From a virus (lineage: Duplodnaviria; Heunggongvirae; Uroviricota; Caudoviricetes), in IMG/VR virus record IMGVR_UViG_2718218360_000017: DNA of 43,496 nucleotides; one strand, given 5' to 3'. Positions 40,445 through 42,272 of the stretch are shown here, piece by piece (position 1 is the first letter of the stretch; every line of letters begins with the position of its first letter). The notes beneath the pieces are model-generated. The model did no database searches. It worked only from the letters and a program-made list of their open reading frames with translations, and was not told the DNA's origin. Made by a program: the position numbers and the translations under genes.

Positions 40445-40674
40445 GATGACACATCCTATAGCACATAGCCAAACATAGCAATCAGACTGTCCGCTTTGTG
40501 TTGAAGCGGACATTGCCGCAGCGACTTGTCTTAGCCATAAATAACCAAAACGATGCGCTGTTCATATAAAGTTCTTTTAAACTTCAAATCAGTAATTTTT
40601 GTCTAAATCTTTTCAAACTCATAAAAACCAGTAAGATAAGAAATCACCTTTACCTGTTTTTATGAGAGGCATAA

Positions 40675-41901
40675 ATGATTGATAATGAAGTTAAAATTTT
40701 TGCAAAAGAAAAAGAAAAAATGCTGTGCAACAAACTTTCTTTTTACAGGGAGCATGCTCAATCGAGTGAAGATACAAGAAAAAGAAACGAATTTGAACGA
40801 GACTATGCGCGTATTCTTTATTCCTCTTCGTTCCGCCGGTTACAGGGGAAAATGCAGCTCTTTGAAGTCGATCCTCAAAAATTTAACCGTAATAGACTGA
40901 CTCATAGCCTAGAAGTTGCCCAGATAGCCCGAAGCATCGCATCCGAACTAGAACTTGAACATCCTGTTGTAGCAGAACTGGCTGCACTTGCTCACGATAT
41001 TGGCAACCCTCCGTTTGGTCATTCCGGTGAAAAAAAGCTAAACGATATTGCTAATGATTTCGGCGGCTACGAAGGCAATGCACAGGCACTTAGAATACTC
41101 AGAAGTCTCGAGATAAAGCATCCAAATTGCCCCGGTCTCAACCTTACCCACCGTGCCATTCTCTCCGTCGTTAAATATCCTTATAAAAAGGAAAACGGCA
41201 GAAAAAAATATCTTTATAATGATGACTATAAATACTACACAGAATTGGTAAATAGATATGAATTAGATTTGCAGACTGGCGAGAAGACCATTGATGCACA
41301 GATAATGGATCTGTCAGACGAAATTGCATATGCCGCGCATGACCTTGAAGATGCACTAAGCCGTAGCATGGTCAGTATTGAAGATATTTTTTATGAGTTT
41401 GGGATATCCAAGTACAAAGACTCAATTGATTTATTAAATAAAATCATTGAAAAATCTAAATATACAGCTTCGAGAGCATCAAGACTCAATTCATCTGAAG
41501 AGTTCGCCATAATATTCAGAAAGGAATTGACATCCAATATTGTTAATGCGCTTGTTAATGATATTACTGTTATTCAAAGTGAAAATGGATTCAAGCAACT
41601 TGGATTTAGCACTACAAAAAATCTGTCTGCAGGCCTTAAAGATATCGTATTTAAAGTCATCATGCGAAAAAGAGATATTAAAAGTTATGAGCACAAAGGA
41701 AACATTATCATCGAAGATTTATTTAATTTTTATAATTATAGAGATAACATAGAATTCATATCCCCTCAACTGTATAGAACGCTCCCAAATAAAATAAATC
41801 CTATTTATCAAGAACTTAAAAAACGTGCAATTGTCGACTACATCTCTGGAATGATGGATACATTTGCCATCCGCGAATGGGAAACGCATCACAAAAAATA
41901 A
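40675..41901 (+). CDS. dgt: dGTP triphosphohydrolase (Dgt family, HD domain)
   Basis: Dgt signatures RLTHSLEVAQIARSIA, AHDIGNPPFGHSGE, YEGNAQALRIL, DLSDEIAYAAHDLEDA, DYISGMMDTFA; AT-rich gene flanked by about 230 and 370 bp of AT-rich non-coding DNA. Confidence 0.9.
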   Translation: MIDNEVKIFAKEKEKMLCNKLSFYREHAQSSEDTRKRNEFERDYARILYSSSFRRLQGKMQLFEVDPQKFNRNRLTHSLEVAQIARSIASELELEHPVVAELAALAHDIGNPPFGHSGEKKLNDIANDFGGYEGNAQALRILRSLEIKHPNCPGLNLTHRAILSVVKYPYKKENGRKKYLYNDDYKYYTELVNRYELDLQTGEKTIDAQIMDLSDEIAYAAHDLEDALSRSMVSIEDIFYEFGISKYKDSIDLLNKIIEKSKYTASRASRLNSSEEFAIIFRKELTSNIVNALVNDITVIQSENGFKQLGFSTTKNLSAGLKDIVFKVIMRKRDIKSYEHKGNIIIEDLFNFYNYRDNIEFISPQLYRTLPNKINPIYQELKKRAIVDYISGMMDTFAIREWETHHKK

Positions 41902-42272
41902 CCAAACTGGCGCACATCACCAACAGATTCAGTGCCACTCTTCCCATGGGACAGAACAGTGATTCTGTCCATTATCACCCGATTATACAGATAAGCCACA
42001 TCTAGTAGTTCTGAGCTAGCATTTTCCACATTGATTACGCTTCCGTGCACATCGTTATTTTTAACCAAAAAGAAAGGACATATGCAAAAATAATATCAAG
42101 TAACGGAGTGTGTTAAATCGTAACCAATCATCTTTACTTTACATTTCGTAACTTAAACCGTACGTTTTCTAAACATTAAATATACACTTTGCGCTGTAAG
42201 TTGTATCTCTCCGTTAAGCTCACTGCTCAACGCCAATAGTCATATTTTATTGCGTTCTGGCTGCGCAAATTG

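What the first reader, a model, noticed from the sequence alone, without database searches (positions are those of the whole stretch)
40445..42272. AT-rich cargo island between xis and int carrying a Dgt-family dGTPase: candidate nucleotide-depletion defence gene
In lambda-type phages xis and int are adjacent. Here about 1.8 kb of AT-rich DNA separates them and carries a single 408-aa gene with every Dgt dGTP-triphosphohydrolase signature. Prophage-encoded dGTPases are reported to protect lysogens against superinfecting phages by depleting dGTP, and the int-proximal position is a typical cargo/defence hotspot. An 11-bp inverted repeat overlaps its ribosome-binding site. The same prophage also encodes a second HD-domain nucleotide hydrolase (YfdR-like, 35530..36066), so it may manipulate dNTP/dNMP pools in two ways.
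Basis: partly seen in the sequence, partly recalled or inferred. Interest (0 to 1): 0.7.

Follow-up and report, generated by a model that had tools for sequence, protein, structure and literature searches.

The report
Prophage cargo gene: dGTPase-family defence candidate
An E. coli prophage carries, in a swappable slot next to its integrase gene, an intact enzyme of the family that destroys DNA building blocks; it is probably an anti-phage gene of a known kind, from a branch of the family for which I found no published test.

Summary
A 1.8-kb AT-rich island (36.9% GC against 52% for the window) lies between an excisionase gene and a convergent integrase gene. It holds one gene, 40675..41901 (+), for a 408-aa HD/HD_assoc protein with all catalytic residues of dGTP triphosphohydrolases.

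The slot is a true cargo hotspot. Related prophages at the same yjjG site share the flanks but carry Borvo (BovA), AbiU or unknown genes instead.

The protein is neither housekeeping Dgt (24% identity) nor a member of the validated Sp-dGTPase anti-phage clade (29% identity, below the NCBIfam cut-offs). It belongs to a third clade of about 400 aa, whose only solved structure is the deposit 9vwa, for which the paper library holds no publication.

The PADLOC dGTPase hit does not discriminate, because housekeeping Dgt also scores 237 bits. The defence reading therefore rests on context. Twelve other clade members examined lie in prophage moron slots, integrase-linked islands, beside Thoeris, Shedu-like or NACHT genes, or inside a restriction-modification (RM)-like operon.

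Best explanation: a lysogenic-conversion gene that depletes dNTPs to block superinfecting phages. It is a new member of a known kind. The link to YfdR, the regulatory role of the inverted repeat and the cited literature precedent are not supported.

The parts
40229..40444 (+). Excisionase-like HTH gene (71 aa), the last conserved gene of the early-left operon. It is the left flank of the slot.
   Evidence: PHROG 1553 excisionase, E 8e-36. The orthologue in phage 2H10 is annotated as excisionase.
40456..42265 (.). Variable cargo island. Homology to related prophages stops at 40455-40500 on the left and resumes at 42217-42266 on the right.
   Evidence: blastn against L002, L003 and L021-L025. 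GC 36.9%.
40488..40512 (+). 10-bp stem-loop just after xis, at the island's left edge. It could be a terminator or insulator, but it has no T-tract.
   Evidence: RNA fold -15 to -16.7 kcal/mol, z -1.14, so not significant on its own.
40563..42176 (+). Mobile cassette: the gene plus 112 nt upstream and 275 nt downstream. It is shared at 82.7% nucleotide identity with the locus of an 85%-identical homologue in a non-prophage context.
   Evidence: blastn against L007-L010; alignments A1 and A3.
40610..40637 (+). Candidate weak sigma-70 promoter: TTTTCA, 16-nt spacer, TAAGAT (8 of 12 matches). It is conserved in L007.
   Evidence: Custom scan and alignment. It falls below the 9-of-12 threshold of the standard scan, which found nothing on the + strand. 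Inferred only.
40618..40666 (+). Inverted repeat. The perfect 11-bp arms are 40618-40628 and 40656-40666. The right arm overlaps 3 nt of the Shine-Dalgarno sequence.
   Evidence: It is not conserved in the 85% homologue's cassette.
40664..40669 (+). Shine-Dalgarno sequence GAGAGG, 5 nt before the ATG.
   Evidence: Read from the sequence.
40675..41901 (+). dGTPase-family (dNTP triphosphohydrolase) gene, 408 aa.
   Evidence: Pfam HD and HD_assoc; TIGR01353 313 bits; PADLOC dGTPase 349 bits. AF2 model pLDDT 87; Foldseek top hits are VC1979, CloA, Sp-dGTPase, TT1383 and Dgt. 51% identical to PDB 9vwa.
41949..41970 (+). Perfect 8-bp hairpin (GGACAGAA, 6-nt loop, TTCTGTCC) starting 48 nt after the stop codon (41949 versus 41901). 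It is invariant in the homologous cassette and is a candidate transcript end.
   Evidence: Fold of 41895-41990: -21.8 kcal/mol, z -3.15. Conserved in alignment A3. The T-tract is weak, so its function is inferred.
41902..42265 (.). Non-coding 3' part of the island.
   Evidence: About 80% identical to L007 with 13-nt and 3-nt indels, which break the 42-aa and 59-aa ORFs. No Rfam family reaches threshold.
42273..43496 (-). Tyrosine integrase (407 aa), transcribed inward from the att end and convergent with xis and the dGTPase gene. It is the right flank of the slot.
   Evidence: Pfam and PHROG 1. In the genome the next host gene is yjjG.

Best explanation
The gene is a horizontally acquired 'moron' carried by a lambdoid prophage of E. 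coli that integrates next to yjjG. Relatives of the prophage include Stx2c-converting phages. The gene sits in the phage's integrase-proximal cargo slot.

It encodes a catalytically competent HD-domain dNTP triphosphohydrolase. In the lysogen this enzyme most likely cleaves dGTP, and possibly other dNTPs, to deoxynucleoside plus triphosphate. That would starve an infecting phage of DNA precursors, as Sp-dGTPase, CloA and SAMHD1 do.

Shown here: family, fold, intact active-site residues, foreign composition, allelic exchange of the slot with known defence genes, and repeated placement of this clade on prophages and defence islands.

Inferred: dGTP as the substrate, expression in the lysogen from its own weak promoter, protection against phages, and some form of gating that spares the carrier phage's own replication.
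For: Family and active site. HD and HD_assoc domains match and TIGR01353 passes its cut-off. The metal ligands H77, H107, D108 and D215 and the H116/E119 dyad are invariant. They correspond to the residues described for CloA, Dgt and Sp-dGTPase.

Fold. The confident AF2 model matches dGTPase structures, including the two anti-phage ones.

Accessory status. The island is present in 42 of 5426 complete E. coli genomes, and also in two Stx2c phages, while every E. coli genome keeps dgt elsewhere.

Hotspot. The same flanks hold Borvo BovA, AbiU, or unknown genes in relatives.

Clade context. Four different prophage slots: window, Proteus, Edwardsiella and Morganella. Directly after a P4-type integrase in Dickeya. 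Islands with NACHT, Shedu-like or Thoeris genes. Inside a methyltransferase/helicase operon. 23 IMG/VR viral contigs at 40% identity or more.

Cassette. It moves with its own upstream and downstream non-coding DNA.
Against: No experiment on this protein or its clade was found in the held literature.

It fails both tests for the validated anti-phage clade. Tal et al. reported that homologues below 45% identity to Sp-dGTPase are rarely next to defence genes.

The PADLOC model also scores housekeeping Dgt at 237 bits.

No consensus promoter was found. The gene is co-oriented with the early-left (pL-type) operon, so it might be transcribed mainly on induction rather than in the lysogen.

A dGTPase would also threaten the carrier phage's own replication, and nothing here explains how that is avoided.

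My context sample has 13 members, chosen by me, and is not a statistical defence score.
Confidence: 0.6

Rival explanations
1. The enzyme serves the phage itself during lytic growth. It would be transcribed by read-through from the early-left operon after induction. It would then remodel dNTP pools, for example to shut down host or competitor-phage DNA synthesis or to time the switch from replication to packaging. On this reading it does not protect the lysogen.
For: The gene is on the same strand as, and directly downstream of, the early-left operon and xis. Only a hairpin without a T-tract lies between them. In six metagenomic phages a clade member (about 43% identical) sits co-directionally between a late regulator and the small terminase subunit. 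It is always followed by a conserved 195-aa gene, which looks like a fixed phage function.
Against: Depleting dGTP during the phage's own replication is counter-productive. In other prophages the gene lies opposite to the neighbouring operon, as in Edwardsiella and Morganella. The slot's alternative occupants are lysogen-protecting defence genes. The cassette carries its own upstream region.
Confidence: 0.15
2. The enzyme is active, but dGTP is not its main target. It could be a broad dNTPase like Thermus TT1383 or SAMHD1, or act on another nucleotide. The outcome, whether defence or something else, would then differ from dGTP depletion.
For: By single-sequence phmmer the protein is as close to the broad-spectrum TT1383 (E 6e-45) as to Sp-dGTPase (1e-40). 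It lacks the segment of about 70 residues (Sp residues 171-239) that falls between the two aligned blocks, and it has a clade-specific N-terminal helix. Base-recognition residues could not be mapped.
Against: The catalytic core and the D-E-x-x-Y region align with the dGTPases. With the clade profile, Sp-dGTPase is the best match outside the clade's own structure (1e-68).
Confidence: 0.15
3. The gene is a passenger with a non-defence or neutral role, for example dNTP-pool homeostasis or mutation avoidance as proposed for Dgt, or a decaying hitch-hiker.
For: Two of the identical islands have a frameshifted gene, in strains UTAK-22 and UTAK-13. RefSeq names it only a 'family protein'. Dgt-like enzymes do have housekeeping roles.
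Against: The ORF is intact and 99-100% conserved in about 40 genomes of several serotypes. All catalytic residues are kept. The clade is consistently found on mobile and defence-type DNA.
Confidence: 0.1

Closest known systems
Sp-dGTPase clade (Shewanella putrefaciens CN-32 dGTPase, E. coli G177 and 1303 dGTPases; Tal et al.; NCBIfam NF041026; PDB 9P8W)
   Same: HD and HD_assoc architecture, the same metal-binding and H/E catalytic residues, a single-gene system, and carriage on accessory DNA near defence genes. The mechanism is presumed the same (dNTP depletion).
   Different: Only 29% identity to the E. coli 1303 member by BLASTP. Against Sp-dGTPase itself, 46% over the N-terminal 144 residues and 24% over the C-terminal part. 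NF041026 scores 276 against a cut-off of 400. The window protein is 408 aa against 443-485 aa, and it lacks the segment of about 70 residues between the two aligned blocks. It has an extra N-terminal helix and is prophage-borne.
PDB 9vwa / 9vwc / 9vwg (402-aa 'dGTP triphosphohydrolase-like protein', about 93% identical to Vibrio and Shewanella proteins P0089 and P0108)
   Same: Same clade: 51% identity over the full length and the same length class. The profile of the window's clade scores it at 686 bits. Its close homologue P0089 lies in an AlpA/YfjJ island with a Shedu-like gene.
   Different: Marine gammaproteobacterial version on an integrative island, not a prophage. No paper on it is in the held library, and it is absent from the Foldseek PDB copy (entries released up to 2026-04-08), so what its depositors showed is unknown to me.
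Clover system (CloA dGTPase plus CloB nucleotidyltransferase; PDB 9P8S-V)
   Same: Same fold and catalytic residues (Foldseek TM about 0.75). CloA shows that defensive dGTPases can be gated by nucleotide signals.
   Different: There is no CloB-like or any other partner gene in the island. Sequence similarity is weak (E 3e-30).
E. coli housekeeping Dgt (b0160; NCBIfam PRK04926; PDB 4X9E and 6OIY)
   Same: Same superfamily, fold and active-site residues.
   Different: 24% identity. Dgt is 505 aa against 408 aa. PRK04926 scores 162 against a cut-off of 405, whereas Dgt itself scores 895. Dgt is a core gene at the mtn-dgt-degP locus. The window gene is in 0.8% of genomes and on a prophage.
Integrase-proximal defence hotspots of temperate phages and satellites (morons)
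   Same: Conserved flanks, one variable gene per phage, low GC, and known defence genes among the alleles (Borvo, AbiU).
   Different: This particular slot lies between a convergent xis and int in yjjG-integrating lambdoid phages (the 2H10 and Stx2c-phage group). I did not find it described in the held papers, but I did not search specifically for it.

Membership tests
dGTP/dNTP triphosphohydrolase family (TIGR01353; Pfam HD + HD_assoc) | HD domain followed by the HD-associated C-terminal domain, scoring above the curated cut-offs | tested here: met
   PF01966 52 bits (cut-off 22); PF13286 49.5 bits (cut-off 22.2); TIGR01353 313 bits (cut-off 152).
dGTP/dNTP triphosphohydrolase family (TIGR01353; Pfam HD + HD_assoc) | Metal-binding H...HD...D residues and the catalytic H/E dyad (FGHxGE) | tested here: met
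   H77, H107, D108, D215, H116 and E119 are invariant in 40 clade sequences. D108 aligns with D101 of Sp-dGTPase, whose D101A mutation abolishes defence.
dGTP/dNTP triphosphohydrolase family (TIGR01353; Pfam HD + HD_assoc) | All-helical dGTPase fold | tested here: met
   AF2 pLDDT 87, pTM 0.89. Foldseek probability 1.00 to VC1979, CloA, Sp-dGTPase, TT1383 and Dgt.
dGTP/dNTP triphosphohydrolase family (TIGR01353; Pfam HD + HD_assoc) | Hydrolysis of dGTP to deoxyguanosine plus triphosphate | not testable with these tools
   Needs an enzyme assay.
Anti-phage dGTPase, Sp-dGTPase clade (NF041026 / NF003701) | At least 45% identity to Sp-dGTPase (criterion of Tal et al.), or a score above the NCBIfam cut-off | tested here: not met
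   29% identity to the E. coli 1303 member. About 33% over the aligned parts of Sp-dGTPase. NF041026 276 against 400; NF003701 243 against 383. The positive control Ec1303 scores 560 and 558.
Anti-phage dGTPase, Sp-dGTPase clade (NF041026 / NF003701) | Located next to known defence genes or on mobile defence islands | tested here: met
   The slot is allelic with BovA and AbiU. Clade members lie beside Thoeris, NACHT, Shedu-like, RM-like and toxin-antitoxin genes, and in four prophage slots.
Anti-phage dGTPase, Sp-dGTPase clade (NF041026 / NF003701) | Protects against phages and depletes dGTP in infected cells | not testable with these tools
   Needs plaque assays and LC-MS of nucleotide pools.
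PADLOC 'dGTPase' system (PDLC02374) | Significant match to the model | tested here: inconclusive
   349 bits, E 8e-105. The model also gives 237 bits to housekeeping Dgt and 478 bits to the Sp clade, so a match does not separate defence from housekeeping. PADLOC's own thresholds were not available.
Housekeeping Dgt (PRK04926) | Score above the equivalog cut-off, a core gene, and the conserved mtn-dgt-degP locus | tested here: not met
   162 bits against a cut-off of 405. Present in 42 of 5426 genomes and on a prophage. Dgt sits elsewhere in the chromosome.
Clover (CloA + CloB) | Adjacent nucleotidyltransferase partner gene | tested here: not met
   The island has one conserved ORF and its 3' non-coding part carries indels. 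No homologue of the partner-like genes seen elsewhere was found in the window.
Prophage moron / cargo hotspot | Variable gene content between conserved flanks, with deviant base composition | tested here: met
   Seven other gene contents between the same flanks. GC 36.9% is the window minimum.
Prophage moron / cargo hotspot | Own promoter and terminator, giving an autonomous transcription unit expressed in the lysogen | tested here: inconclusive
   Only an 8-of-12 promoter-like site, conserved in L007, and a conserved hairpin with a weak T-tract. No expression data.

The most novel reading that the evidence does not exclude
The clade of about 400 aa (window protein, PDB 9vwa, PHROG 21998 'unknown function') is a separate lineage of dNTP-depleting immunity, carried on mobile elements, for which I found no published validation. 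Temperate phages have installed it in at least four different moron slots.

A lysogen's own prophage must replicate in the same cytoplasm. The enzyme would therefore need a trigger or gate that distinguishes a foreign infection from self-induction, or else the phage would need its own immunity to it.

This E. coli lambdoid lysogen would then be a tractable model for self versus non-self discrimination in nucleotide-depletion defence.
Probability: 0.2. Interest if true: 0.55.

Novelty: new member of a known kind. Interest (0 to 1): 0.3.

Why it matters
If the gene protects lysogens, it adds nucleotide depletion to the defences that Shiga-toxin-type prophages lend to EHEC and EPEC strains. That bears on phage therapy, phage typing and competition between prophages.

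The analysis also shows that validated 'anti-phage dGTPase' annotation covers only one clade. A second clade, present in about 7% of complete E. coli genomes (42 with this allele and about 342 with a 64%-identical paralogue), is labelled only 'family protein'. For this clade I found no published test of defence.

The xis-int slot itself also yields several unannotated candidate defence genes.

None of this is conceptually new.

Tried and rejected
Partner gene. No CloB-like gene is present. No homologue of the 195-aa gene that follows the dGTPase in metagenomic phages, or of the genes downstream in other loci, was found anywhere in the window.

Small ORFs in the 3' spacer. Rejected because 13-nt and 3-nt indels relative to L007 break them.

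Structured RNA. Rfam gave only a sub-threshold ctRNA_p42d hit (21.6 bits against a gathering score of 50) on the opposite strand, inside the coding sequence.

Inverted repeat as a regulator. It is not conserved in the 85% homologue's cassette, where the region folds no better than shuffles (z +1.36).

Consensus promoter scan. Nothing on the + strand at 9 of 12 matches.

Tal et al. Table S2. The stored copy is cut at about 40% identity, so the window's clade could not be looked up there.

Paper behind PDB 9vwa. None found in the library.

Chance equal lengths. The 239-aa gene next to the Klebsiella dGTPase is unrelated to the 239-aa cargo of 2H10 and L024. The 710-aa Morganella neighbour is unrelated to BovA.

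YfdR as a functional partner. Rejected as specific, because yfdR is present in relatives with other cargo.
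Full report
**1. The observation**

The region is as described.

- ORF 40675..41901 (+) encodes 408 aa.
- The gene before it, 40229..40444 (+), matches PHROG 1553 excisionase at E 8e-36.
- The gene after it, 42273..43496 (-), is a tyrosine integrase with an arm-binding domain.
- GC of 40445..42272 is 36.9% against 52.0% for the window. It is the lowest of all 1828-nt windows (profile).
- The inverted repeat exists: 11 perfect pairs, 40618-40628 with 40656-40666. Its right arm covers 3 nt of the Shine-Dalgarno sequence GAGAGG.
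- The second HD-domain gene, 35530..36066, is YfdR-like (phrog_318 at 3e-109; RefSeq name yfdR).

One premise needs correcting. xis and int are convergent here, and the integrase is transcribed inward from the attachment-site end. The next host gene is yjjG. The gap between xis and int is therefore a standing feature of this phage group, not an interruption of a lambda-like int-xis pair.

**2. What the window is**

It is a lambdoid prophage of E. coli.

- The 2.5 kb around the island are 99-100% identical in 42 of 5426 complete E. coli genomes. These include O111:H8, some O157:H7, and isolates from pig, chicken, river water and humans. The same 2.5 kb occur in two Stx2c-converting phages.
- The late and early regions resemble Stx2c phages at about 95% identity.
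- The window itself has Q, a NanS-p-like esterase, a cI-type repressor and an NleG effector, and none of the ORFs I scanned matched a Shiga-toxin family.

**3. The slot is a cargo hotspot**

Related prophages share the xis-side flank and the integrase. Five of them (L021-L025) are at the same yjjG site. Homology stops at 40455-40500 and resumes at 42217-42266. Between those points the relatives carry:

- a 710-aa CHAT-domain protein that matches PADLOC BovA (Borvo) at E 1e-241;
- a 566-aa AIPR protein that matches AbiU at 4e-111;
- unknown genes of 331, 239 and 413 aa;
- in phage PhiR63_1, unknown genes of 377 and 121 aa.

Counting the dGTPase gene, at least three of eight alleles match models of known defence systems.

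The dGTPase cassette extends from 40563 to 42176. Over that span it is 82.7% identical to the locus of an 85%-identical homologue that sits beside an IS110 element and, in one contig, a Thoeris system. The gene therefore travels with 112 nt of upstream and 275 nt of downstream non-coding DNA.

- The upstream part holds a weak promoter-like site (TTTTCA, 16 nt, TAAGAT) that is conserved between the two cassettes.
- The downstream part holds an invariant 8-bp hairpin at 41949-41970 (z -3.15).
- The inverted repeat at the ribosome-binding site is not conserved in the other cassette, so I give it no regulatory weight.

**4. What the protein is**

Family membership is clear.

- Pfam HD and HD_assoc match, and TIGR01353 passes its cut-off.
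- The metal ligands (H77, H107, D108, D215) and the H116/E119 dyad are invariant.
- The AlphaFold model is confident (pLDDT 87). Its best structural matches are V. cholerae VC1979, CloA, Sp-dGTPase, Thermus TT1383 and E. coli Dgt.

It clusters with neither.

| Comparison | Result |
|---|---|
| E. coli Dgt | 24% identity |
| E. coli 1303 protein that RefSeq names 'anti-phage deoxyguanosine triphosphatase' (54% identical to Sp-dGTPase in Tal et al. Table S2) | 29% identity |
| Sp-dGTPase itself | 46% over the N-terminal 144 residues, 24% over the C-terminal part |
| PDB 9vwa (402 aa) | 51% identity |

- With NCBIfam, both positive controls pass their own models: Dgt scores 895 against a cut-off of 405, and Ec1303 scores 560 against 400. 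The window protein and four other clade members pass only the broad TIGR01353 model.
- The PADLOC dGTPase model gives 478 bits to the Sp clade, 344-380 bits to this clade, and 237 bits to housekeeping Dgt. A PADLOC hit therefore cannot settle whether the gene is defensive.
- PDB 9P8W is Sp-dGTPase and 9P8S-V are CloA, according to the Clover preprint.
- 9vwa is about 93% identical to Vibrio and Shewanella proteins. I found no paper on it.

**5. Context of the clade**

Tal et al. reported that homologues below 45% identity to Sp-dGTPase are rarely found next to defence genes. I therefore examined where members of this clade (49-85% identical) lie.

| Member (organism) | Location |
|---|---|
| Proteus | Last gene of a prophage, beside its integrase |
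| Edwardsiella | Lambdoid prophage, between recET and the N/cI region |
| Morganella | Lambdoid prophage, between the replication genes and the nin/Q region, on the opposite strand |
| Dickeya | Directly after a P4-type integrase, in an island with a TacAT toxin-antitoxin pair |
| E. coli paralogue (64% identical; about 342 genomes) | AlpA/YfjJ island beside cdiBA |
| Klebsiella | Island with a 2092-aa NACHT protein |
| Vibrio | AlpA island with a Shedu-like gene |
| Metagenomic contig | 7 bp after a type IIG-like methyltransferase and 7 bp before a PLD-SNF2 helicase |
| Other members | PIN/Panacea neighbours; a variable chromosomal edge; a QueC/deoxyribosyltransferase islet |

IMG/VR holds 23 viral contigs with relatives at 40% identity or more. 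This is a hand-picked sample, not a statistic. Even so, every one of the twelve contexts in the table is in accessory or variable DNA, most with mobility or defence-type neighbours, and none resembles a conserved housekeeping locus.

**6. Mechanism and its open points**

Most likely (about 0.6), the gene is a lysogenic-conversion defence. An HD-domain dNTPase would remove dGTP, or dNTPs more broadly, so that a superinfecting phage cannot replicate. This is what has been shown for Sp-dGTPase and CloA.

Substrate, expression and protection are all inferred. Two features keep rival explanations alive.

- The gene is co-oriented with the early-left operon and separated from xis only by a hairpin that lacks a T-tract. 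It may therefore be transcribed on induction.
- In one group of metagenomic phages the gene is a fixed, co-directional component just upstream of the terminase genes, followed by a conserved 195-aa gene.

How a carrier phage would spare its own replication is unexplained. CloA shows that such enzymes can be gated by nucleotide signals, but the island has no partner gene.

**7. The YfdR idea**

yfdR lies in the conserved backbone of relatives that carry other cargo: 2H10, PhiR63_1 and strain 142. The co-occurrence is inherited from the backbone and is not evidence of a two-enzyme strategy.

**8. Verdict**

The feature is real and correctly located, and it is ordinary in kind: a defence-type moron in a prophage hotspot. 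The useful refinements are three.

- The protein belongs to a dGTPase clade distinct from the validated one, and I found no published test of that clade.
- The standard HMM hit does not discriminate defence from housekeeping.
- The xis-int slot of these phages is a source of further candidate defence genes.

Novelty: new member of a known kind. Interest: 0.3.

Noticed in passing
L024:1314-2033(-), L025:1099-2340(-), L023:2460-3455(+), L003:3423-4556(-) and L003:2967-3332(-): The same xis-int slot in related prophages holds genes with no Pfam or PADLOC match: 239 aa (phrog_8440), 413 aa (phrog_30399), 331 aa (phrog_5157), and 377 aa (phrog_7779) with a 121-aa neighbour. Other alleles of the slot are Borvo, AbiU and the dGTPase, so these are candidate new defence genes by association.
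   Followed up: partly
L035, L037, L039, L042, L044, L045 (IMG/VR metagenomic phages); e.g. L039:5920-7272 and L039:7288-7875: A dGTPase-family gene (about 43% identical, 437-450 aa) is always followed by a conserved 195-aa protein (55-69% identical between contigs) with no Pfam, PHROG or PADLOC match. The pair sits between a late-transcription regulator and the small terminase subunit. This may be a two-gene system or a fixed phage function.
   Followed up: partly
PADLOC model PDLC02374, tested on L026:1238-2755 (E. coli dgt): The PADLOC dGTPase model scores housekeeping E. coli Dgt at 237 bits (E 1e-70). A raw match to this model does not indicate a defence gene.
   Followed up: yes
L070:4653-12569: A 51%-identical clade member is packed between a 1113-aa type IIG-like methyltransferase (7-bp gap) and a 1093-aa PLD/SNF2 helicase (7-bp gap). 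This suggests a three-gene defence operon that contains a dGTPase.
   Followed up: no
E. coli genomes, e.g. L004:8001-9233: About 342 of 5426 complete E. coli genomes carry a 64%-identical paralogue of the window gene in an AlpA/YfjJ island beside cdiBA, followed by a 189-aa membrane-like ORF. RefSeq labels it only 'family protein'.
   Followed up: partly
window 1-651 (+): An NleG-type type III secretion effector gene lies at the far end of the prophage, so the element carries virulence cargo as well.
   Followed up: no
window 24164-26110 (-) and 27512-28264 (-): A 648-aa protein with DUF1737, SASA-esterase and DUF6645 domains (NanS-p-like) lies downstream of the Q antiterminator gene in a low-GC stretch. 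That is the position where, from general knowledge of Stx phages (not checked here), the toxin genes lie. The window resembles Stx2c phages at about 95% identity, but none of the ORFs I scanned matched a Shiga-toxin family.
   Followed up: partly
Hits H17 and H18 (strains UTAK-22 and UTAK-13): In two otherwise identical islands the gene is annotated as two pieces ('hypothetical protein' and 'HD domain-containing protein') and the match is one base shorter. This points to a frameshifted copy.
   Followed up: no
L074:4718-6540 and L007:1652-2320: Two clade members lie next to queuosine-pathway-like genes: QueC with a PfkB/nucleoside-deoxyribosyltransferase fusion in Cronobacter, and QueH in the 85% homologue's locus. 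This could be coincidence or a link to guanine-analogue metabolism.
   Followed up: no
PDB entries 9vwa, 9vwc, 9vwg: The closest solved structures appear in the sequence copy of the PDB but not in the Foldseek copy (entries released up to 2026-04-08), and no paper in the library cites them. One entry carries an H-to-A change in the FGH motif, which suggests a substrate-trapping study of this clade.
   Followed up: partly
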